From positions 1 to 64,000 of the IMG/VR virus record IMGVR_UViG_3300034152_000556: 64,000 nucleotides of DNA; one strand, 5' to 3'. This DNA is from a virus. Positions 47,949 to 56,267 of the stretch are shown here, piece after piece. The notes under the pieces are model-generated. The model was not told the origin of the DNA. It made no database searches and worked only from the letters and a program-made list of their open reading frames with translations. The position numbers and the translations under genes were made by a program. Each line of letters opens with the position of its first letter. The stretch's first letter is position 1.

Positions 47949-48290
47949 CTATGTGATTTTTGCATATTCTTTTATTTCATGCCACGGTGTAAAGTAGCAA
48001 GCGTCTAGATTAAATGTATAGATGACATTTTCTATCATCTTTTTAGTTGTTTCATTCAGTGGTAAATTCTGTAGGTTTTCAGGTAAACAAAGTTCCCTTG
48101 TTCGTGGGTCTGCATTAGGATGATTACCCAACAATTTAACTTCGTGGATTTTGTCAAAAAGTGTCTCAACGATATATCCATCTATTATCATAAATTCATC
48201 TAGCTCTATAATTTTATAATACTCGTTTTTGTATTTCATTCGTCCTGGCTTGATTTTTTTCTTCACTTTGATTCTTTTTCTTACTTGCAT
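47949..48290 (-). CDS. Minimal UBC/E2-like protein
   Basis: HPNADPRTRELCLP resembles the E2 HPN...C catalytic signature; TGATG-coupled to the ThiF gene. Confidence 0.6.
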   Translation of the reverse strand: MQVRKRIKVKKKIKPGRMKYKNEYYKIIELDEFMIIDGYIVETLFDKIHEVKLLGNHPNADPRTRELCLPENLQNLPLNETTKKMIENVIYTFNLDACYFTPWHEIKEYAKIT

Positions 48291-49138
48291 CAAGCAGCTC
48301 CAGTTTCAGGTATTAAAACAATATACCCATGATTGTGTAACGATATCAGATATGATGGATATTCACATGGTAATGTTAATAGAGACGTTAGACTACTTAC
48401 CACATCATAACCAGTTTTCAAAGTGTTTTGTGGTATTTTTGTCTGTGATATCGGTTGTTCCTGACTCCCAACGAACACTTCAATATCACGTTTTCTATTT
48501 TCTTCAATGATTGGTATGATGTTAGTTGGTAAGTTTACGATCTGTTGCGCTTCAGCAGCGCATTCGTATACAACTTCACCATATTTCGGTTCGATTTTCT
48601 TTAGATAATCCAGTTCATATTTCTGAATGGATTGTGTTTTTATTAGCTGTCTGATGGTCTGATTAGAGACCAGCATTGATACAATAAAAGCAGCATTGCG
48701 AATGTCATCTTTTCTTAGATCAACAAGATATCTGCCGTCCTTCTGTTCTTTATATGATACATTCTTACGACAGTCAACGATAACATACCGAGAAGATATT
48801 GAAACTCTGACATCAATTATATCTTTTCGATCACAAATAATATCCCTGCAATCAAAAACGATATCGCCTTCTGGTATCTTAGTTTCACCTTCTATAAAAG
48901 TGTCATCAATAGATTTGACAACAACACCGGGATTTTGATGAATGATGATATCAGTTAAAGCTGTAACCTTTTTAACACCAACATCGATGGGTCGATATAT
49001 TGATGTTCCAAGGTTCTTCCACTCAACGGTATCAAAATCGATCAGGGTAAGTTCTTCAGTTTCGTCTAATCGAGATAAGCTATCCGCAAGAAAGCCACCA
49101 AGCGTTCCAAGTCCTGCAATTACAAAAGATTTGTACAC
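48290..49138 (-). CDS. Second ThiF/E1-like protein
   Basis: IAGLGTLGG, LIDFDTVEWKNL, VGVKKV, FDCRD; lacks the usual NxxRQ Arg; ends IVLIPETGAA. Confidence 0.75.
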   Translation of the reverse strand: MYKSFVIAGLGTLGGFLADSLSRLDETEELTLIDFDTVEWKNLGTSIYRPIDVGVKKVTALTDIIIHQNPGVVVKSIDDTFIEGETKIPEGDIVFDCRDIICDRKDIIDVRVSISSRYVIVDCRKNVSYKEQKDGRYLVDLRKDDIRNAAFIVSMLVSNQTIRQLIKTQSIQKYELDYLKKIEPKYGEVVYECAAEAQQIVNLPTNIIPIIEENRKRDIEVFVGSQEQPISQTKIPQNTLKTGYDVVSSLTSLLTLPCEYPSYLISLHNHGYIVLIPETGAA

Positions 49139-49172: not shown

Positions 49173-49198
49173 GGGGGATTCCCCTAAGAGAATCCCCC
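49173..49198 (-). terminator. Stem-loop just downstream of the Ubl gene (stabiliser or leaky terminator)
   Basis: GGGGGATTC-8 nt-GAATCCCCC; no U-tract on the minus strand. Confidence 0.55.
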
Positions 49199-49217: not shown

Positions 49218-49703
49218 TTAGCAGCCTTTCTTACCCGCTTTTTTCATGAATTCCAGTTTGTCCTGGTCTTGCAACGTATAGCTGTCGTTGACTTTGCTGC
49301 CATTGACAATGGCATCGGCTGCGGCGTCGATGTTCAGGACATCTCTCAGGAATGCTTTCACTTCACCAACAGGTTTTCCCACTACTGGGAAGTTTCCTGA
49401 AGAAGCACCACATGAAACTTGAATTGTGGTGCTGAAACCGGCTGGACCGGCGCTCTTGTCGGTTTGCACGGTTTTGAATCCTCCGTGCATTTCGCTGATG
49501 GGGCCTGAGCTTGGTGCCGCCACTGCGAAACCGGCTGGAGCGGCGCCCGGTTTGACCGGATTGGATGCTTGGTATTCCAGAATAGCGCTGATCACGACAT
49601 CCTTCGGTTTCTTGGTGATACCGGCGATGCCCATCTCGTGATAAGCCATTCTTTTCAGTTCTTTTGCTGACATGTCTTCTAGTTGTGCTCTTGAGTAACG
49701 CAT
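49218..49703 (-). CDS. Ubiquitin-like (beta-grasp) protein fused to an N-terminal Rho-N/HeH-like domain
   Basis: LEDMSAKELKRMA..MGI....KKPKDVVISAIL; Pro/Ala linker; AIVNG...YTLQDQDKLEFMKKAGKKGC. Confidence 0.8.
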   Translation of the reverse strand: MRYSRAQLEDMSAKELKRMAYHEMGIAGITKKPKDVVISAILEYQASNPVKPGAAPAGFAVAAPSSGPISEMHGGFKTVQTDKSAGPAGFSTTIQVSCGASSGNFPVVGKPVGEVKAFLRDVLNIDAAADAIVNGSKVNDSYTLQDQDKLEFMKKAGKKGC

Positions 49704-50419
49704 ACGTTTTCTCCTTCACTTACTTGCGTAGTTGTGGTGGTTTTTGGTACTTCTCTGACCTTGGCATGGCAAGCCATTTTCTCAATGTCAAAGTAAATTT
49801 CGGAAACATTAGTTTCCGCACGAATAACAACGTTGTAGAAAGCCCAGCACATTAGCGTAGCTACTCCTAGATTTGTAAAATACAGCTGGGGTTCTGATAC
49901 AGATAGTTCTTCACATGACATCTCATGTGGAGACTTATCATCGGGTTCATCGATTTCTGGATGGTATGCACAGAGGTTTGGTGTTAGATCGCGACCCCCC
50001 TTTCGTAGATATATTTGCACATTACCATCTATATAATCGTTCCCCCCTGAGATAAGACTTATATTGTTTAGGGTTGAACAATAGTCTGAGACGAGCTTGC
50101 GTGTCTTATGATTATCGACACACATAAAAATCATACAATCCTCTTTGATAATATCTTCAACGTTTTCTTCTGTGATATATTCTGTAACTGTATCAAATTC
50201 GATATTGTCAAAAATGGCTGAAAGCTCTCTCGCCTTGATGGTGGCTTTTTTTCCAAGATCGAAGAAGTCTTGTCTTTCGAAATTCTTGGCTTCATATGAA
50301 TCACCATCAACAAAGATAAATCTCGCTTGTTCTATGTCATGATTAAAATTGACATAACGAGCGAGTCGTTCGACTAGAATGGTTCCTATACCACCGAGTC
50401 CGATTACCACTATTTCCAT
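49679..50419 (-). CDS. ThiF/E1 ubiquitin-activating-like enzyme
   Basis: IGLGGIG, DGDSYEAKNFERQ, CVDNHKTR, SGGN, SCEEL (candidate catalytic Cys), PQLYFTN. Confidence 0.9.
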   Translation of the reverse strand: MEIVVIGLGGIGTILVERLARYVNFNHDIEQARFIFVDGDSYEAKNFERQDFFDLGKKATIKARELSAIFDNIEFDTVTEYITEENVEDIIKEDCMIFMCVDNHKTRKLVSDYCSTLNNISLISGGNDYIDGNVQIYLRKGGRDLTPNLCAYHPEIDEPDDKSPHEMSCEELSVSEPQLYFTNLGVATLMCWAFYNVVIRAETNVSEIYFDIEKMACHAKVREVPKTTTTTQVSEGENVCVTQEHN

Positions 50420-50431
50420 TCACATTTCTCC

Positions 50432-51925
50432 TTATAGCTTTTTCAGGAATCGATTGAGACCAGATTGTAATCTCGTTCTTAGAGTATTTCCTTGAGTGGT
50501 CTTATCTATGATAACTTGTGGTACTTCTAACTCATGTGAGTCCACACCCGATTTATCAGTTAGAAAATCGCCTGAGTTGAGATTTTCATGAATCAATGCA
50601 AGTGGATCGGTGTAGTCATCTGGGTGTCTTACTTGAACCTCACCTTCTTCTTCTGCGCTTGGGTCATATTCATATAGGTCTTGACCGCCCCTTTCATCTA
50701 GGTCTTCTTGTACATCTTCTTCTGTTGCGTCGAGACTCATCAACATCATTCCAAATTCTAATGCTGATTTTCTGTAGAAACACGTTGAACATGTGTAGTG
50801 GATGCGGTAAAAAGCATCATCCTCCTCGACGCTTCCGGCTGGGTCATCATCGACCGGTTCCGTGCAGACTTCCAATGTCCATTCAAAGGCTTCGTCCCGA
50901 CAAGAGCAATCGCTGCATACGAATTCTCCGGTCGCGTCTTCTGCTTTTGGGTCCTTTCCTTTTGTTGTATCTAGTGCTTTCACTGGTGCTTTCTGTGGAT
51001 GAACTTCATCAAACCTTCGACCCCATTTTGATTCATACCAATCGAATAACCCATCGGGGTCGATTATGGGGTCAGCGCCTGATGCTGGATACATGCCACC
51101 ATAGTGCCCACCATATCCATAACCATAGCCATATGAATATTTGTAGGTTTTCTTTGTGACAAACCCAAGCCAGTTTTCATTGAACTGAATTTGATCTTCG
51201 GGAACTGTAAGCTTGAAACGACAATCCCATTTCCATTCGGTTTTCGGTTTTTCTTGCTTGTTCACTTTTGGCACAAGAGCACCATCTTTCCACACATAGA
51301 CTTGTGCGCCCGCTGACGGGTATGTGGTTACTTTTGATTTCTCTCGTGTCTGTGTGATACCTTCCATATAGTCAAGCGGGTCAACCTTGAATCGCTTTTC
51401 ATTTGCAACAATCGATGCTGTAATACTCACCTCTTCATCTGCAACATTACCGATTGTTATGTGCAAGCCATCAAAGTGTTTTTCATCAGCGATATCAACA
51501 CCAGAGTGAAAGGCTGAGAAGTTAGCGTGACTGTGAATGGTGCCAACTTTCAAATAACCATCAACAGTCAACTGGCGGTCATAGTCAATGGCTGCTGATG
51601 ATACCTCTTGTGTTGGTGGTAGCAGAATGAATAGTTTTGTTTTTGGGTCGTATAGAATCAGAACCATTGATTCTGATTTGTGGGTTGCATATACCCGTCT
51701 GAAGAATGTAACTGTGGTGGCAGTTTTGTCAGCTGGTATCTTTGGTAGATGAACCTTAGCCATTTGTTCGACGGGTTGGAGTGTTGCCACTCCACCGTCG
51801 ATTTTTGTAAGACTTTCCATGATACCAAGCTTTTTCTTCAGATAGAGTCCATCTTTTCCAACGATGTATAGAATATCATCGTTTGGCATCTCTTGTGTGC
51901 CATCATTGATAAAAACTCTAAACAT
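50432..51925 (-). CDS. Prokaryotic JAB/MPN metallopeptidase with long low-complexity/Cys C-terminal region
   Basis: KSE...IHSHANFSAFHSGVD (JAMM E-HxH-S-D); N-terminal YIVGKDGLY...LPKIP domain. Confidence 0.88.
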   Translation of the reverse strand: MFRVFINDGTQEMPNDDILYIVGKDGLYLKKKLGIMESLTKIDGGVATLQPVEQMAKVHLPKIPADKTATTVTFFRRVYATHKSESMVLILYDPKTKLFILLPPTQEVSSAAIDYDRQLTVDGYLKVGTIHSHANFSAFHSGVDIADEKHFDGLHITIGNVADEEVSITASIVANEKRFKVDPLDYMEGITQTREKSKVTTYPSAGAQVYVWKDGALVPKVNKQEKPKTEWKWDCRFKLTVPEDQIQFNENWLGFVTKKTYKYSYGYGYGYGGHYGGMYPASGADPIIDPDGLFDWYESKWGRRFDEVHPQKAPVKALDTTKGKDPKAEDATGEFVCSDCSCRDEAFEWTLEVCTEPVDDDPAGSVEEDDAFYRIHYTCSTCFYRKSALEFGMMLMSLDATEEDVQEDLDERGGQDLYEYDPSAEEEGEVQVRHPDDYTDPLALIHENLNSGDFLTDKSGVDSHELEVPQVIIDKTTQGNTLRTRLQSGLNRFLKKL

Positions 51926-54551
51926 TCATTATCCTCCGAGAATCTACCGGATAGAATTCACTCATTTTCTCGTTTTGGGTGAACATACCTCTGAAGTTTG
52001 GTAATCCGGGTTGTAGGTCAACAATCAATTCTTTCTCTGACATTCTTGGTGGAAGAATGCCATGCGGTAGCGCGTAACTCTTAAACGTCTCATCAAACAC
52101 AAAATAATCATGTGCAAGATTTAGAACTGAACCTAGAGATGCACAGCGCGAATCACCAAGCTTGTTCTGAAAATACATATAATCATAATCTGACTTATAT
52201 GGACCTCCAGTGATTTCAAAGACATCTCCTGGTTGTATTTTGATTTTGTTCATATCAAGTGGCACATGCTGCGTCTTTTGCCATGTCTTTGTACCCATTC
52301 GCATCTTTGTGAAGTTTGCAATCACATCTTCAGCCCAAAGAGTCAAACCATTTGAGCAAAGTACAAGGGGTTCGTCGCAGCCTGTATCTGTGATAAATCC
52401 AATGATGATATTAACATCAGTTTTCGGGAAGTTTTGAATATCATCAACTTTTGCTTTTATTTTCATGCCTGTTTGTAGGGTCTTGTATTTTGTTTTAACG
52501 TGTCTTACTGCCCCCACATCTATATAGCTTTTGTTGCCTTTGATATAGACTTTTTCTGATAACTTTCCGTCTTTGTCTTGCAGAATAAACGAAACAGTTT
52601 GCAATTCATCGTTGACTTTGAATCCCATGATAGTTTTTATCTTCAACATTTCAAGCGGCGTTTCCCAGTTTGCACAGACCACTCGATCACCAACTTCAAA
52701 TTTAATATCTCCATCGAAGCTTGGTATGTTGAGTTTGCTACCATCTATCCATTGTCGTGTAATGCTTGTGAAAGGCACATCTGCTAAACCAGCATTGTGA
52801 TTGATGTAAAAACCATCTGGTGAAGCATATGCAACAAGAACTTCTTTTTTGTGTGAATCTGTTACCGATTTAATAGCTCTTAGCTTATAGTATCGGTTGC
52901 CAACTCTGAATGGCATATTATCTATTTTTTTCAACTTGTTTAGTTGTAGATATGTCACGGTATCTTGATTTTTTGGATCTAGAATATCAATACCACCGTT
53001 TTCATTTTTGAAACGATAAATTAAATCACCAGATGGTGAAACATCTAAATCAACAAATTCTAGATTTTTGAAAGTGCTGACAATTGATGTTGATGTTAAA
53101 GTGTCGTAGTGTTTTCCAGCGTCAAATGAGAGGCAATACTTTTTTCCTGGTTTTATCAAGCGACCGAAAAGTTTTGGTTTTTCAACATTGTACTTCTCGA
53201 TCTCAAGACCATCAACAGCGGTAAAGTACTCATCACCTAAGCGAAACTCAGGTACGCCATTGAACTCTCGAATTGATATTAGCTTTTTAAATAGGGGTTT
53301 CTGGCTTACTGCGGTTTTGACAGTAACGATATCACCAATAGTTAGCTTCTTACCATTGTATTTGATATTTGCTTTTTCTTGCCTTGTCTTCATTTCTTCG
53401 AGAATTTTATCTTTGAGTTTCTTCGTAAGCTGTATCATGCGATATTCTCCATTTGGTTTTTCATATCGCATGTGAGATATATTGGGTGTTCTTGCAGATG
53501 ATAGAAATGATACCACTCTAACTTCTTGATTTTTATGAGTGAAGGTGTCTCCCGGATATAGAAGAAACATCCCATTGCTATCAAGATGTACAACTGCCGA
53601 TGCGTTTTCTTTCAATGGCTGTGGTTTTGTATCATCGGTGATTTCATCTGATGAGAAACTAGTTTTGAAGAATGTTGTAATTCTTGATATATCAGCAGAT
53701 ACGCTAGAATTTAGACTTATATTACGACCACTATTAAGCGTGTATTTGATAGCTGCACCGAGAGTTGCTTTTTTTGCCAACAGCCACCTGACTTTAAATA
53801 TAAACATTGGGTCGTTGATGGTTCGATGTGCCCACTCTATCGGATTTGAGACATACGGTGTCTTTGCTTGATGATATCGATTTGGGTTATACATATAGTC
53901 CGAGTTAAATTCGTTGTTCCAGAAAAAGTGCATATAATTTTGAATGAACACTGCAACGTTTGGATAGTTCGAACCCATACCATCACCTAGACAGCACCAT
54001 AGACCATCGTTTAGATTTGGAAGATTGGCATAAAACATCGGGTCACCCATGCCCATTACTGGCGCTGGTCTGAAATAAACGGTAGAACCACGATAACGGT
54101 TGTTTGAATCAACAATAACAATATGGATGATATATGGAAATGCAAAGTTGATTGTATGTAGTTCTCGTGAGCCGCCTTTGCTATCGAAGTGTTTATCAAT
54201 CACATCTTTCCACTCATCATACATTCCACGGTCTCGTGCGTCTTTAATTTCATTTGCAAAGTTTCTACGCATGTTGACTGTTCTAATTGCTGGTTGTTCT
54301 TCGATAACAACACACTTATTTCCGTGCATATCTTCATATATGTAGCGACAGTTCATGGGAAGGATACCATCGTAGGTAAACTCTCTTGTTGTTAGCCTCT
54401 TCTGTAATTGGTTCAGAAGAATATTTGTTGGAATTATACCTTTCGTAATTTTTGCTTTTGGGTCTTTCCAACTTTCATCTCTATATTTATCTGGAATTTC
54501 GCTGCCGTATAGAACGGCGTACTTCTTGTTCAGCCGAATCTCTTCGATCAT
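51918..54551 (-). CDS. Large prokaryotic E2 (family D/PRTRC-B-like) protein with repetitive beta-rich C-terminal region
   Basis: FAFPYIIH...MFYANLPNLNDGLWCCLG...FFWNNEFN; overlaps the JAB gene start. Confidence 0.7.
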   Translation of the reverse strand: MIEEIRLNKKYAVLYGSEIPDKYRDESWKDPKAKITKGIIPTNILLNQLQKRLTTREFTYDGILPMNCRYIYEDMHGNKCVVIEEQPAIRTVNMRRNFANEIKDARDRGMYDEWKDVIDKHFDSKGGSRELHTINFAFPYIIHIVIVDSNNRYRGSTVYFRPAPVMGMGDPMFYANLPNLNDGLWCCLGDGMGSNYPNVAVFIQNYMHFFWNNEFNSDYMYNPNRYHQAKTPYVSNPIEWAHRTINDPMFIFKVRWLLAKKATLGAAIKYTLNSGRNISLNSSVSADISRITTFFKTSFSSDEITDDTKPQPLKENASAVVHLDSNGMFLLYPGDTFTHKNQEVRVVSFLSSARTPNISHMRYEKPNGEYRMIQLTKKLKDKILEEMKTRQEKANIKYNGKKLTIGDIVTVKTAVSQKPLFKKLISIREFNGVPEFRLGDEYFTAVDGLEIEKYNVEKPKLFGRLIKPGKKYCLSFDAGKHYDTLTSTSIVSTFKNLEFVDLDVSPSGDLIYRFKNENGGIDILDPKNQDTVTYLQLNKLKKIDNMPFRVGNRYYKLRAIKSVTDSHKKEVLVAYASPDGFYINHNAGLADVPFTSITRQWIDGSKLNIPSFDGDIKFEVGDRVVCANWETPLEMLKIKTIMGFKVNDELQTVSFILQDKDGKLSEKVYIKGNKSYIDVGAVRHVKTKYKTLQTGMKIKAKVDDIQNFPKTDVNIIIGFITDTGCDEPLVLCSNGLTLWAEDVIANFTKMRMGTKTWQKTQHVPLDMNKIKIQPGDVFEITGGPYKSDYDYMYFQNKLGDSRCASLGSVLNLAHDYFVFDETFKSYALPHGILPPRMSEKELIVDLQPGLPNFRGMFTQNEKMSEFYPVDSRRIMNV

Positions 54552-54554
54552 TCT

Positions 54555-54929
54555 TTATTCTCCTCGAAAGTATTTCACAAGTTTCGCATACTCCGTTAGA
54601 ATGTTCTTTGCCTTTGCCTCTTTAATATCCCAAGATTTCTTCGGAAATTTTTGAGTTTCTCGTGGGTCAGATTTTATCGCAGCCTTTGGTATTGACCAAA
54701 GTCTTGCAACATAATGACCTATGCTTTCGCGTTCTAATGTTAGATAACACAGTTCGCTATCATAACGACCTGGAACTTCTAAAGTGAGAATGACATTTGG
54801 CCCTTGCGGGGCATATTTTATATTCATATGAGGATGTTCTTCTTTTTCAATTAGGTCGCACATCTCTCTTACTTTATCAAGTTCCTCATCGTATGGTGTT
54901 CCTGCAATGAGTTTTCCTAGTGTTTTCAT
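54555..54929 (-). CDS. Hypothetical protein
   Basis: ATGA-coupled to the upstream gene. Confidence 0.65.
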   Translation of the reverse strand: MKTLGKLIAGTPYDEELDKVREMCDLIEKEEHPHMNIKYAPQGPNVILTLEVPGRYDSELCYLTLERESIGHYVARLWSIPKAAIKSDPRETQKFPKKSWDIKEAKAKNILTEYAKLVKYFRGE

Positions 54930-55234
54930 GCTGGTTTCCTTATTCTGTATCTTACCTTGTCTAACTCTACCCAATCGGCTTGCTTAAATGGAATAGAACG
55001 CCATTCTTGTTTTTCCAAATCAAAGCAATGAATTATTCCATTTTTACGCATTAAATTGACGATTTTCTTAATATTTACAGATTTCGGATGTTGCTTTTTT
55101 GGAATTTGAGTAAAGTCTAAGGTGCATACCATTACTCGAATTGTTCCGTCCTTTTTCTTGAATTTGACAACAGCTTCTTTTGCTTTAGAAAGCTTTTCCC
55201 AAAAATCAAGAGCAGATGTGATTTCATCAGCCAT
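54926..55234 (-). CDS. WYL_2/DUF2693-like SH3 beta-barrel protein
   Basis: VKFKKKDGTIRVMVCTL...FDLEKQEWRSIP. Confidence 0.75.
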   Translation of the reverse strand: MADEITSALDFWEKLSKAKEAVVKFKKKDGTIRVMVCTLDFTQIPKKQHPKSVNIKKIVNLMRKNGIIHCFDLEKQEWRSIPFKQADWVELDKVRYRIRKPA

Positions 55235-56267
55235 CTTTCTTACCCTCCCTTACATCTAGGTGTACTAACCCTGCAACATCATCAGTCATGCTCATAAGCT
55301 GGCATGTATGATTACAGAGTTGACAATAATTTCTTTTATCTCGTATCAGTGCTTCTCTCACTTGATATGATACCTCTCTCCTTTGAACAAACAGATTCAT
55401 TAGAGAGTTATACTTTGGAGTATGTACGCCTCTTATACGCAGACAAAGTCGAATTGAACCATCAGCATCTATGGTAATATTATGAATACCTTGCTCTAAG
55501 AAACAATCTAACTTTGCTGGTAAAATATCAAAAATCTTTTCTAATAGATAATGCTTCATATGAACATTACATTTTCGGTCATCTAGTATTTTTACAAGTT
55601 CACCAGCGAGTCGCAGACTTGGTCTTACCAACTGTTCTGTACCATAAACATTTGAAAAGTCATACCAGCTGTTTTTTGCGATATCGACAAATGTCAAATC
55701 GCTACAGATACCCAAGTCTGAAAGTTTCCTGATAAACCTATGTAGATCAGAAATATCATGTTTCATTACGGTTACTTCAGCAACAAGGTCTTTGATTTTC
55801 GTGTGTTCTTTCAAAACTACTAAATTTGCTAGACCTTCTCGACTCTTTTTTGCTCGATCTGAATTATCAGTTGCTAAAACAGGGTCGATGGATGCTGTGA
55901 AACCTTTTATCTCATCGACACTTCTTAATAGATTGGTGATTCTATCTTGAATGCCTCTTGAGTTGTTGCTTATAATTGTATAATGCATTCTGTTTTCATT
56001 GCAGAAGTTTATTATATCTGGTAAGTCATTTCTTAGTAATGGTTCGCCGCCATAGAAGATATGAAAACAATCTGGGTTGTGCATTTTAAATTGCAACAAA
56101 GCCATCTTGATATAATCCAGCGACATTTCATTTTTATGATAATAAGATGAGATTGGATAGTCACCTTGACCGCCTCCACCGGCTATGATAGCACAGTACT
56201 TGCAGTTTAAATTGCAACGGCGAGTTAGTATCCAATTCACAATTTTGATTCGTTCTTTATTTTCCAA
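55227..56267 (-). CDS. Radical SAM enzyme with Cys-rich C-terminal (SPASM/twitch-like) region
   Basis: CNLNCKYC, YGGEPLLR, C...IDADGSIRLC...CQLCNHTC. Confidence 0.85.
   Translation of the reverse strand: MENKERIKIVNWILTRRCNLNCKYCAIIAGGGGQGDYPISSYYHKNEMSLDYIKMALLQFKMHNPDCFHIFYGGEPLLRNDLPDIINFCNENRMHYTIISNNSRGIQDRITNLLRSVDEIKGFTASIDPVLATDNSDRAKKSREGLANLVVLKEHTKIKDLVAEVTVMKHDISDLHRFIRKLSDLGICSDLTFVDIAKNSWYDFSNVYGTEQLVRPSLRLAGELVKILDDRKCNVHMKHYLLEKIFDILPAKLDCFLEQGIHNITIDADGSIRLCLRIRGVHTPKYNSLMNLFVQRREVSYQVREALIRDKRNYCQLCNHTCQLMSMTDDVAGLVHLDVREGKKDG

What the first reader, a model, noticed from the sequence alone, without database searches (positions are those of the whole stretch)
49218..49703. 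The Ubl carries a Rho-N/HeH nucleic-acid-binding domain, a possible 'DNA/RNA-tethering tag'
Seen: residues ~5-42 (LEDMSAKELKRMAYHEMGIAGITKKPKDVVISAIL) follow the Rho-N/SAP-like helix-extended-helix pattern. A Pro/Ala/Gly linker and the Ubl follow. Inference: conjugation would covalently give targets a nucleic-acid-binding or oligomerising module, possibly recruiting them to phage DNA/RNA instead of marking them for degradation.
Basis: partly seen in the sequence, partly recalled or inferred. Interest (0 to 1): 0.75.

Follow-up and report, generated by a model that had tools for sequence, protein, structure and literature searches.

The report
Phage ubiquitin-like tag with HeH domain
An uncultured jumbo phage encodes a ubiquitin-like protein tag whose N-terminus is a small Rho_N/SAP-type helix-extended-helix module, the tag sits in a full phage-borne E2-JAB-E1 conjugation cassette next to the phage RNA polymerase genes, and the fusion is real and conserved but what the extra module binds is still untested.

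Summary
The 161-aa ORF (49218-49703, minus strand) has three parts:
- a Rho_N-type helix-extended-helix (HeH) domain, residues 3-50. Pfam scores it just above its cut-off. The AF2 model has pLDDT >90 and superposes on Rho residues 1-47 at 1.0 A.
- a variable A/G/S/P linker followed by a conserved motif.
- a ThiS/MoaD/ubiquitin-like beta-grasp ending in an invariant Gly, capped by 0-1 residue (Cys here).

It is the last gene of a four-gene unit: Prok-E2_D-type E2, JAB peptidase, ThiF-type E1, Ubl. A second ThiF-like gene, a mini E2 with an HPN...C motif, and RNA polymerase beta'/beta follow. This order holds in all 53 viral loci fetched and in about 30 longer metagenome loci.

The HeH domain is modular. 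It is always present in the RNAP-linked phage-type cassettes, doubled in some relatives, and absent from compact relatives, one of which is flanked by cellular housekeeping genes. The enzymes therefore probably do not need it. It looks like a phage-acquired targeting or tethering add-on.

Nucleic-acid binding is plausible but untested, and protein docking is a live rival. No paper describing this was found in the library searched. Earlier scan notes cover only this same genome, not other DNA.

The parts
49218..49703 (-). HeH-Ubl gene, 161 aa (P0001), including stop codon
   Evidence: ORF list and translation. More than 225 full-length homologue clusters.
49711..49716 (-). Shine-Dalgarno AAGGAG, 7 nt upstream of the ATG, inside the 3' end of the E1a gene
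   Evidence: Read directly from the sequence.
49554..49697 (-). Rho_N/SAP-type helix-extended-helix (HeH) domain, residues 3-50
   Evidence: Pfam Rho_N 25.3 bits. AF2 pLDDT >90. Rho 1a62_A Z 7.8, rmsd 1.0 A over 47 aa. Invariant L8, L16, G28, K31, K34, I41.
49503..49553 (-). Variable A/G/S/P-rich linker, residues 51-67
   Evidence: Low conservation and variable length. pLDDT <50.
49434..49502 (-). Conserved pre-beta-grasp motif, residues 68-90. Consensus roughly TG-x-EF...S-x-LTKP-x-A-x-G, with a conserved Lys. It is absent from beta-grasp-only relatives.
   Evidence: Column conservation 50-90%. Beta-grasp-only relatives start at the following strand. Modelled with low confidence.
49224..49433 (-). 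Beta-grasp ubiquitin-like domain, residues 91-160. It contains the invariant VSCGASSG motif and ends AGKKG with invariant Gly160.
   Evidence: TGS/ThiS Pfam hits. Fubi, ThiS, MoaD and ISG15 structural matches. C-termini of 120 relatives.
49221..49223 (-). Cys161, a one-residue cap after the terminal Gly
   Evidence: Of 120 relatives, 74 end G-C, 42 end G, and 4 end G plus F, Y, Q or N.
49173..49198 (-). 11-bp GC-rich hairpin 20 nt after the Ubl stop, with no U-tract. It marks the end of the four-gene unit.
   Evidence: RNA fold -33.6 kcal/mol, z -3.1. An equivalent hairpin of different sequence follows the Ubl stop in nearly all of 34 loci examined.
49679..50419 (-). E1a, a 246-aa ThiF-type adenylating enzyme with canonical motifs
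   Evidence: Pfam ThiF 7.2e-20. Invariant GxGGxG, N46-x-x-R49-Q50, D102-N103 and C169.
50432..51925 (-). JAB/JAMM peptidase, 497 aa, with an H-S-H...S-x-x-D motif and a long C-terminal extension
   Evidence: NCBIfam PRTRC_A 1.3e-10. Pfam Prok-JAB 2.7e-4, below cut-off. Motif seen in the translation.
51918..54551 (-). Large E2: a Prok-E2_D-like N-terminal domain plus about 580 aa of unassigned C-terminal region
   Evidence: 20 of 23 orthologue N-termini hit Pfam Prok-E2_D, best 4.4e-7. The window's own copy does not hit alone. Invariant C68 and C187.
48290..49138 (-). E1b, a second ThiF-like protein (282 aa): an E1 fold plus a C-terminal beta-beta-alpha-beta-beta domain with a conserved ...TGAA tail
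   Evidence: Pfam ThiF 7.2e-15. AF2 pLDDT 84. Cap2 E1 domain Z 18.9. Tail conservation.
47949..48293 (-). Mini E2-like protein, 114 aa, with invariant H-P-N-x8-C-x-P
   Evidence: Alignment of 20 orthologues. Weak profile match to a UBC E2 exactly at HPN...C (1yrv, E 0.41).

Best explanation
The gene encodes a two-module ubiquitin-like modifier of an uncultured jumbo myovirus.

Enzymatic cycle (inferred from family knowledge):
1. The JAB peptidase trims the single Cys after Gly160.
2. The ThiF-type E1a adenylates Gly160 and takes it onto its conserved Cys.
3. The Prok-E2_D-type large E2 accepts the Ubl and passes it to lysines of target proteins. Its long C-terminal extension probably selects the targets.

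Role of the N-domain:
- The N-terminal Rho_N/SAP-type HeH domain, on a flexible linker, is not needed for this chemistry, because compact relatives of the cassette, at least one in a cellular gene context, lack it (shown).
- It is an add-on of the phage lineage that stays on the modifier (inferred).
- It most likely binds nucleic acid, probably DNA (inferred).
- That would either concentrate the modifier on phage or host DNA, so that DNA-bound proteins are the ones tagged, or give tagged proteins an extra DNA anchor (inferred).

Shown here: the domain architecture, its conservation and modularity, and the cassette and its synteny next to replication/repair and RNA polymerase genes.

Not shown: conjugation, retention of the HeH on conjugates, and nucleic-acid binding.
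For: Fold and family of the N-domain.

Beta-grasp with an invariant terminal Gly and a 0-1 residue cap in 120 of 120 relatives.

Complete enzyme set in one strand-coherent block:
- E1a has intact GxGxxG, NxxRQ, DN and a conserved Cys.
- The JAB has the JAMM motif.
- The large E2 family hits Prok-E2_D in 20 of 23 members.
- The mini E2 has HPN-x8-C.

Synteny:
- The same gene order occurs in all 53 IMG/VR loci and in about 30 long metagenome loci.
- A conserved hairpin right after the Ubl stop delimits the four-gene unit.

Modularity of the HeH:
- Among the top 149 beta-grasp relatives, 71 have one HeH, 13 have two, 28 have none and 17 are tandem beta-grasps.
- HeH-less Ubls lie in compact E2(239 aa)-JAB-E1-Ubl cassettes; the one with long flanks (L056) sits among cellular housekeeping genes.
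- HeH presence is clustered on the beta-grasp tree: 12 changes against a shuffled mean of 46.5.
- One divergent locus has a stand-alone three-HeH protein next to two HeH-Ubl genes.

Nucleic-acid context:
- The structural matches include DNA-binding SAP domains, such as FAN1 bound to flap DNA.
- The neighbours are an SbcC-like nuclease, a helicase, topoisomerase II and RNAP beta'/beta.
- A basic TKKPK cluster is conserved at the loop and start of the last helix.
Against: - No binding or conjugation experiment exists.
- The HeH is only mildly basic (median net charge +2, range -4 to +7).
- In Rho itself the main RNA contacts are made by the following OB-fold rather than the N-terminal helices (own knowledge, not tested here).
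- SAP/HeH folds also mediate protein-protein contacts (SLX4 SAP-MUS81 and the T4 endonuclease VII C-terminal domain are among the matches).
- The window's own large E2 does not reach Pfam Prok-E2_D by itself, and the Prok-JAB hit is below Pfam's cut-off.
- The first beta-hairpin of the beta-grasp and the conserved motif before it are modelled with low confidence.
- HeH presence also co-occurs with the E1b/mini-E2 pair. An enzyme-docking role is therefore not excluded, although all of these loci belong to one clade.
Confidence: 0.5

Rival explanations
1. The HeH is a protein-docking handle, not a nucleic-acid binder. It would recruit the modifier, or its conjugates, to a specific protein such as the phage or host RNA polymerase, a host factor, or the phage-specific E1b/mini-E2 pair.
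For: SAP/HeH folds that bind proteins are among the structural matches (SLX4 SAP with MUS81). The net charge is modest. HeH-bearing Ubls co-occur with E1b and the mini E2 and with adjacent RNAP genes in about 80 loci, while HeH-less Ubls lack them.
Against: The co-occurrence is phylogenetically confounded, because it is one phage clade. L110/L112 carry an HeH-Ubl with no E1b, mini E2 or RNAP within 8 kb downstream. Copy-number variation of 0, 1 or 2 HeH, and a stand-alone triple-HeH protein, look more like avidity for a polymeric ligand.
Confidence: 0.25
2. The protein is mainly a ThiS/MoaD/TtuB-like sulfur carrier. E1a would make a C-terminal thiocarboxylate, and the HeH would dock the carrier on DNA or RNA for a thiolation reaction, possibly alongside some protein conjugation as with archaeal SAMPs.
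For: The best Pfam and structural relatives of the beta-grasp include ThiS, MoaD and TtuB. E1a's nearest NCBIfam models are ThiF and MoeB. A radical-SAM gene lies three genes upstream of the cassette.
Against: The tail is ...KKG, not the ...GG of sulfur carriers. Two E2-like proteins with invariant Cys and a JAB are integral to the block. No rhodanese, cysteine desulfurase, ThiG, MoaE or TtuA-like domain was found in the six cassette proteins.
Confidence: 0.08
3. The modifier polymerises. The HeH self-associates, or the Ubl is conjugated onto the conserved Lys of its own linker motif, giving multivalent HeH chains that coat or compact DNA.
For: A conserved Lys sits in the otherwise flexible region before the beta-grasp. 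Relatives exist as genetically encoded tandem beta-grasps (2-4 copies) and as double-HeH forms. Other bacterial Ubls oligomerise through N-terminal domains or form filaments (PMC11601603).
Against: There is no direct evidence for self-association. The HeH of Rho is not an oligomerisation element (own knowledge). The linker Lys could equally be structural or a binding residue.
Confidence: 0.1
4. The N-domain is a pro-region removed before conjugation, so conjugates carry only the beta-grasp.
For: A conserved motif lies between the linker and the beta-grasp and could be a processing site. The cassette encodes a peptidase.
Against: JAB peptidases of such systems act at the C-terminal Gly (family knowledge). 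The HeH is highly conserved and sometimes duplicated, which is unexpected for a discarded pro-piece. No Gly-Gly-like site precedes the beta-grasp.
Confidence: 0.05

Closest known systems
Bacterial Bil/Bub ubiquitin-like proteins with accessory N-terminal domains (Gong et al. 2024, PMC11601603)
   Same: A single beta-grasp Ubl in an E1/E2/JAB operon, preceded by a variable N-terminal domain thought to add self-association or other properties.
   Different: The N-domains reported there are N/G-rich tails, coiled coils and DUF1508, and no HeH/Rho_N is mentioned. Those operons are bacterial and partly defensive. This one is a core, syntenic module of a jumbo-phage clade. PADLOC models gave no hit to the Ubl, JAB or E2 proteins.
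Prok-E2_D / PRTRC-type E2-JAB-E1-Ubl cassettes of mobile elements (Iyer et al. 2006, PMC1779556; NCBIfam TIGR03734-03738)
   Same: The same four activities are present. The JAB matches PRTRC_A (1.3e-10), E1a matches PRTRC_ThiF (1.8e-8), and the large E2 family matches Prok-E2_D.
   Different: All matches are far below the curated cut-offs. PRTRC_C, PRTRC_B and the ParB component are not found in the record. The Ubl carries an HeH, the E2 has a ~580-aa extension, and a second ThiF-like/mini-E2 pair plus RNAP genes follow.
N-terminal helical subdomain of transcription terminator Rho (PDB 1A62) and SAP/HeH domains (FAN1, Hcc-1, SLX4)
   Same: Same fold and sequence pattern. Rmsd is 1.0 A over 47 residues to Rho 1-47 and 1.2-1.4 A to SAP domains. 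Pfam Rho_N scores above its cut-off.
   Different: It is not followed by Rho's OB-fold and ATPase. Here it is a free-swinging module on a Ubl. Only one such domain occurs in the 108.7-kb record, and no close copy was found in longer proteins.
Ubiquitin/Ubl precursors with a short C-terminal cap, and archaeal SAMPs/TtuB (own knowledge, not tested here)
   Same: An invariant C-terminal Gly carries 0-1 extra residue that varies between relatives, as in precursors trimmed by a dedicated peptidase. The beta-grasp is ThiS/MoaD-like and is activated by a small ThiF-type E1.
   Different: The tail is ...AGKKG, not ...GG. The domain has an extra N-terminal HeH and an invariant Cys in the first hairpin (VSCGASSG).

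Membership tests
Rho_N / SAP-like HeH domain (Pfam PF07498) | Profile match above Pfam's gathering score | tested here: met
   25.3 bits against 24.9, residues 7-48. 27.8 bits in the six-frame search. 20 of 30 relatives match, best 5.8e-10.
Rho_N / SAP-like HeH domain (Pfam PF07498) | Helix-extended loop-helix fold superposable on solved members | tested here: met
   AF2 pLDDT >90. Rho 1a62_A 1-47 at Z 7.8, rmsd 1.0 A. FAN1 SAP at Z 5.6, rmsd 1.4 A.
Rho_N / SAP-like HeH domain (Pfam PF07498) | Binds nucleic acid | not testable with these tools
   Needs EMSA or anisotropy. Only the conserved TKKPK cluster and a mild positive charge are seen.
Transcription terminator Rho | Rho_N followed by the OB-fold RNA-binding domain and a RecA-type ATPase | tested here: not met
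   The C-terminal part is an 70-aa beta-grasp. There are no Rho_RNA_bind or ATPase hits.
Conjugatable ubiquitin-like modifier | Beta-grasp fold | tested here: met
   TGS 28/30 and ThiS 17/30 relatives. Fubi Z 6.4, ThiS Z 5.9, MoaD and ISG15 Z 5.7-5.9. Z values are moderate.
Conjugatable ubiquitin-like modifier | Invariant C-terminal Gly, free or with a short removable cap | tested here: met
   120 of 120 relatives end G or G plus one residue. The same ...GxKG tail occurs in distant relatives.
Conjugatable ubiquitin-like modifier | Adjacent E1 with intact adenylation motifs and a conserved Cys, an E2 with a conserved Cys, and a JAB peptidase | tested here: met
   E1a. Prok-E2_D in 20 of 23 orthologues with invariant Cys. 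Mini E2 with HPN-x8-C. JAB motif and PRTRC_A match.
Conjugatable ubiquitin-like modifier | Forms isopeptide conjugates with target proteins | not testable with these tools
   Requires reconstitution and mass spectrometry.
PRTRC system (NCBIfam) | PRTRC_A and PRTRC_ThiF above curated cut-offs | tested here: not met
   41.2 bits against 101.8, and 34.0 bits against 144.75.
PRTRC system (NCBIfam) | PRTRC_C Ubl, PRTRC_B and the ParB-family protein present | tested here: not met
   No match at E<=1 in the 108.7-kb record. The record is a fragment, about 35% complete.
Bil / Bub / CBASS-type defence Ubl systems | Profile matches to the systems' Ubl, E2 and JAB components | tested here: inconclusive
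   PADLOC v2 (2023) hits only E1b, and weakly E1a, to Cap2-type E1-E2 models. The library may not hold Bil/Bub models.
ThiS/MoaD sulfur carriers | C-terminal Gly-Gly and a partner sulfur-transfer or synthase enzyme in the operon | tested here: not met
   The tail is KKG. No such domain was found in the six cassette proteins. The rest of the genome was not surveyed for them.

The most novel reading that the evidence does not exclude
A jumbo-phage clade runs its own 'chromatin-tagging' ubiquitin-like system. The HeH-Ubl is covalently attached to DNA-bound host or phage proteins, or chained on its own conserved linker Lys. This would anchor the tagged proteins on DNA or coat the DNA. It would control nucleoid takeover or transcription by the adjacent phage RNA polymerase, not proteolysis.
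Probability: 0.15. Interest if true: 0.85.

Novelty: new variant of a known kind. Interest (0 to 1): 0.6.

Why it matters
Ubiquitin-like conjugation in the prokaryotic world has so far been studied as a bacterial defence (Bil, CBASS Cap2/Cap3, Bub) or as sulfur metabolism. Here a complete cassette is a conserved core module of a widespread, uncultured jumbo-phage lineage. Its modifier carries a domain of a kind that usually contacts nucleic acid.

If the modifier really tethers to DNA or RNA, this would be a virus-encoded protein tag whose purpose is localisation, not degradation. The comparison with HeH-less relatives would then show how a phage rebuilt a simple modifier for that purpose.

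The system is small and can be reconstituted from five or six genes, so the idea is directly testable.

Tried and rejected
Searches that found nothing:
- Megablast of the cassette and tblastn of the Ubl against 50,697 GenBank phage records gave no match. The clade has no deposited relative there.
- A scan of one genome per prokaryote species with the beta-grasp alignment found no relative.
- Viral-contig scans with a triple beta-grasp relative and a beta-grasp-only relative found nothing.
- A search with the HeH region alone among proteins longer than 282 aa found no hit.
- Literature searches found no paper describing an HeH/Rho_N-Ubl fusion or a phage-encoded complete E1-E2-JAB-Ubl cassette. 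The library lacks most subscription journals.

Matches set aside or uninformative:
- Foldseek of the two-domain model against the PDB gave nothing at E<=0.001. The exhaustive aligner was needed.
- A profile search of the PDB with the full-length family gave only the Dun1 FHA domain (E 0.011). I rejected this as a local beta-hairpin resemblance (G-x-x-NG...GD-x-L-x-F).
- hhalign of the E1b C-terminal 80 residues against the Ubl family showed no similarity.
- The ESM Atlas search on the large E2's C-terminal 580 residues was uninformative, with TM <0.3.
- A 3308-aa Flavobacterium protein in the representative search (19 short stretches; named) did not match the beta-grasp HMM and was set aside.

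Complex prediction: the N-terminal part (residues 1-88) against E1a + E1b + mini E2 gave 'no answer' (score 0.00, controls not run). This is no evidence either way.

Expression, sample origin and the rest of the L110/L112 contigs could therefore not be checked.

Full report
**What is at the coordinates**

The minus-strand ORF 49218-49703 encodes 161 residues. A strong AAGGAG Shine-Dalgarno lies 7 nt upstream of the ATG, inside the end of the preceding gene.

**The N-domain**

- Pfam Rho_N matches residues 7-48 at E 1.5e-5, just above the gathering score (25.3 against 24.9 bits).
- It is the only Rho_N match in the 108.7-kb virus record.
- The borderline score is backed by relatives: 20 of 30 family members hit Rho_N individually, the best at 5.8e-10.
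- An AlphaFold2 model built on a 30-sequence alignment gives pLDDT 86-95 for residues 1-50. It has helices 5-10, 13-23 and 34-47 around an extended loop.
- In an exhaustive structural comparison, the best match of the whole model is the N-terminal subdomain of E. coli Rho (1a62_A residues 1-47; Z 7.8, rmsd 1.0 A over 47 residues, 23% identity). The SAP domains of FAN1, Hcc-1 and SLX4, the T4 endonuclease VII C-terminal domain and the YqbF HeH follow.

**Linker and beta-grasp**

- Residues 51-67 are an A/G/S/P-rich spacer of variable length.
- Residues 68-90 form a conserved motif with a conserved Lys. It is modelled with low confidence.
- Residues 91-160 are a beta-grasp. TGS matches 28 of 30 relatives and ThiS 17 of 30. 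Structural matches are Fubi, ThiS TT1568, MoaD and ISG15 at Z 5.7-6.4.
- The domain contains an invariant VSCGASSG hairpin and ends ...AGKKG.
- In 120 relatives the terminal Gly is invariant: 74 add one Cys, 42 add nothing, and 4 add F, Y, Q or N. This is the signature of a modifier whose Gly carboxylate is the business end and whose cap is trimmed.

**The system around it**

Six co-directional, tightly packed genes surround the Ubl:
- A large E2 of 877 aa. The N-termini of 20 of 23 orthologues hit Pfam Prok-E2_D, best 4.4e-7, with invariant Cys residues. The window's own copy does not reach significance alone.
- A JAB/JAMM peptidase with the H-S-H...S-x-x-D motif. It matches PRTRC_A at 1.3e-10, and Prok-JAB below cut-off.
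- E1a, a 246-aa ThiF-type enzyme with invariant GxGGxG, NxxRQ, DN and a conserved Cys.
- The Ubl itself.
- E1b, a second ThiF-like protein of 282 aa. Its residues 1-186 match the Cap2 E1 domain at Z 18.9. It also has a confident C-terminal beta-beta-alpha-beta-beta domain and a conserved ...TGAA tail.
- A 114-aa protein with invariant HPN-x8-C-x-P, the UBC E2 motif.

RNAP beta' and beta follow. Upstream lie a WYL_2 protein, a radical-SAM protein, an SbcC-like nuclease, a helicase and topoisomerase II. The same window carries tail sheath, baseplate, tape-measure and large-terminase genes. CheckV rates the 108.7-kb record as about 35% complete. This is a jumbo myovirus.

**Conservation**

- The protein has more than 225 full-length homologue clusters, all from metagenomes or viral bins. 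None is in GenBank phages.
- In all 53 IMG/VR loci fetched, the gene order from the SbcC-like gene to rpoB is the same. About 30 longer metagenome loci repeat it.
- A GC-rich hairpin follows the Ubl stop codon in the window (11 bp, z -3.1). In nearly all of 34 loci examined there is an equivalent hairpin with a different sequence but the same structure and position.
- About a third of loci carry one or two inserted genes between this hairpin and E1b.
- The large E2-JAB-E1a-Ubl set therefore behaves as a unit. This matches the four-gene cassettes of distant relatives described next.

**Do relatives keep or swap the N-domain?**

A profile of the beta-grasp alone, searched against 1.84 billion representatives, found 1380 proteins at E<=1e-3. 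The best 149 have these architectures:

| Architecture | Count |
|---|---|
| One HeH + one beta-grasp | 71 |
| Two HeH + one beta-grasp | 13 |
| Beta-grasp only | 28 |
| Another or unrecognised N-extension | 18 (+1 with two beta-grasps) |
| Two to four tandem beta-grasps, no HeH | 17 |

One further protein of the 149 (P0130) did not match the beta-grasp HMM.

- Nearly all keep the ...GxKG tail.
- Genuine HeH-less Ubls lie in compact cassettes of E2 (about 240 aa), JAB (about 300 aa), E1 (224 aa) and Ubl (about 80 aa). One such cassette, L056, is flanked by phosphoglucomutase, YchF, chaperonin and RelA/SpoT genes, which is a cellular context.
- Every RNAP-linked phage-type cassette with an untruncated Ubl has the HeH. 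One locus with a 755-aa E2 but no E1b, mini E2 or RNAP downstream (L057) has a beta-grasp-only Ubl; its origin is unclear.
- The most divergent syntenic locus has two tandem HeH-Ubl genes preceded by a stand-alone protein made of three HeH repeats.
- On a poorly resolved beta-grasp tree, HeH presence is clustered: 12 changes against a shuffled mean of 46.5. A single origin is not excluded.

The HeH is thus dispensable for the E1/E2/JAB chemistry. It is a copy-number-variable add-on of the viral lineage.

**Most likely mechanism**

Shown: the architecture, the conservation and the cassette.

Inferred from family knowledge:
1. The JAB trims Cys161.
2. E1a adenylates Gly160 and forms a thioester.
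3. The large E2 transfers the Ubl to target lysines, with its long tail probably choosing them.
4. The HeH stays attached and binds nucleic acid.

The HeH would then either concentrate the modifier on DNA, so that DNA-bound proteins are tagged, or add a DNA anchor to tagged proteins.

For nucleic-acid binding:
- the fold family and its DNA-bound SAP relatives;
- the conserved TKKPK cluster;
- HeH multiplicity;
- the replication/transcription neighbourhood.

Against:
- the modest charge;
- protein-binding SAP precedents;
- in Rho the OB-fold, not this subdomain, makes the main RNA contacts (own knowledge).

My estimates are about 0.95 for the architecture, about 0.75 for a true conjugation system, and about 0.45 for nucleic-acid binding by the HeH.

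**Rivals**

- Protein-docking handle: 0.25.
- Polymerising or DNA-coating modifier: 0.10.
- Sulfur carrier: 0.08. The KKG tail, two E2s and a JAB argue against it.
- Discarded pro-region: 0.05.

**Comparison with known systems**

- Bacterial Bil/Bub Ubls are known to carry varied N-terminal domains: N/G-rich tails, coiled coils and DUF1508 (PMC11601603). An HeH is not among them.
- The enzymes resemble PRTRC/Prok-E2_D cassettes only distantly. All scores are below the curated cut-offs, and PRTRC_C, PRTRC_B and ParB are absent.
- PADLOC recognises only the E1 folds.
- I found no paper describing this fusion or a phage-encoded complete cassette. The library searched omits most subscription journals.
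- The earlier notes of this scan all concern this same genome.

**Verdict**

This is a real, conserved and previously undescribed variant of a known kind of system. Its structure-level claim is solid and its functional claim is open.

Noticed in passing
window 49173-49198 (-); same position in L001-L051: A perfect 8-12 bp GC-rich hairpin follows the Ubl stop codon in nearly every locus. The sequences differ, so the structure is conserved but not the sequence. Some have a U-tract and some, including the window, do not. It probably ends or stabilises the four-gene transcript and raises Ubl dosage relative to the downstream genes.
   Followed up: partly
window 48290-49138 (-), E1b: The second ThiF-like protein keeps GxGxxG, DxD, K57 and DCRD but has NLxxSxxR instead of NxxRQ. 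Its fold is closest to the CBASS Cap2 E1 domain (Z 18.9). It carries a confident C-terminal beta-beta-alpha-beta-beta domain ending in a nearly invariant ...TGAA. This could be a UFD-like E2-recruiting domain or a fused second modifier. It has no sequence similarity to the free Ubl.
   Followed up: partly
window 47949-48293 (-), mini E2: A 114-aa protein, translationally coupled to E1b, has invariant H-P-N-x8-C-x-P, the UBC-type E2 signature. At this size it is smaller than canonical E2 cores.
   Followed up: partly
L052:983-2356: The most divergent syntenic locus has a 157-aa protein made of three tandem Rho_N-like HeH repeats with no beta-grasp. It is followed by two near-identical tandem HeH-Ubl genes (126 and 129 aa) with very short linkers.
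   Followed up: partly
L056:5596-8204 and L075: Compact relatives of the cassette have an E2 of about 240 aa, a JAB of about 300 aa, an E1 of 224 aa and a beta-grasp-only Ubl of about 80 aa. L056 lies between phosphoglucomutase, YchF, Cpn60 and RelA/SpoT genes, so it is on a cellular chromosome fragment. This may be the ancestral form.
   Followed up: partly
window 49410-49433 (-), residues 91-98 onward; alignments A4 and A6: An invariant Cys sits in the first beta-hairpin of the Ubl (VSCGASSG in the phage family, V-x-CGAN in distant relatives). Its role is unknown. Two thirds of phage members also end in a Cys.
   Followed up: no
L003, L008, L013, L017, L019, L026, L035, L043, L045, L049, L050 (between Ubl and E1b); L034, L038, L040, L045, L049: About a third of loci have inserted genes between the Ubl hairpin and E1b. 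One is a conserved ~190-aa protein (motif ARG-[VI]-[SA]-ICS...GKNKAFGRA). The other, present alone or with it, is a ~80-aa protein (motif PKLQI-x-R...KKDGT). Pfam gives no hit for either.
   Followed up: partly
window 54926-56267 (-): Directly upstream of the cassette are a WYL_2 (Sm-like SH3 barrel) protein (orf102, E 1.4e-10), an unassigned 139-aa protein, and a radical-SAM protein (orf346). All three are syntenic with the cassette in the viral loci. In the short contig L063, WYL_2-like and orf139-like genes directly follow a beta-grasp-only Ubl.
   Followed up: partly
L110/L112:3452-8207: A large E2-JAB-E1a-HeH-Ubl unit has no E1b, mini E2 or RNAP genes in the 8 kb downstream. An epimerase and a phage-type RNA ligase lie there instead. 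The HeH-Ubl unit can therefore be separated from the E1b/mini-E2/RNAP block.
   Followed up: partly
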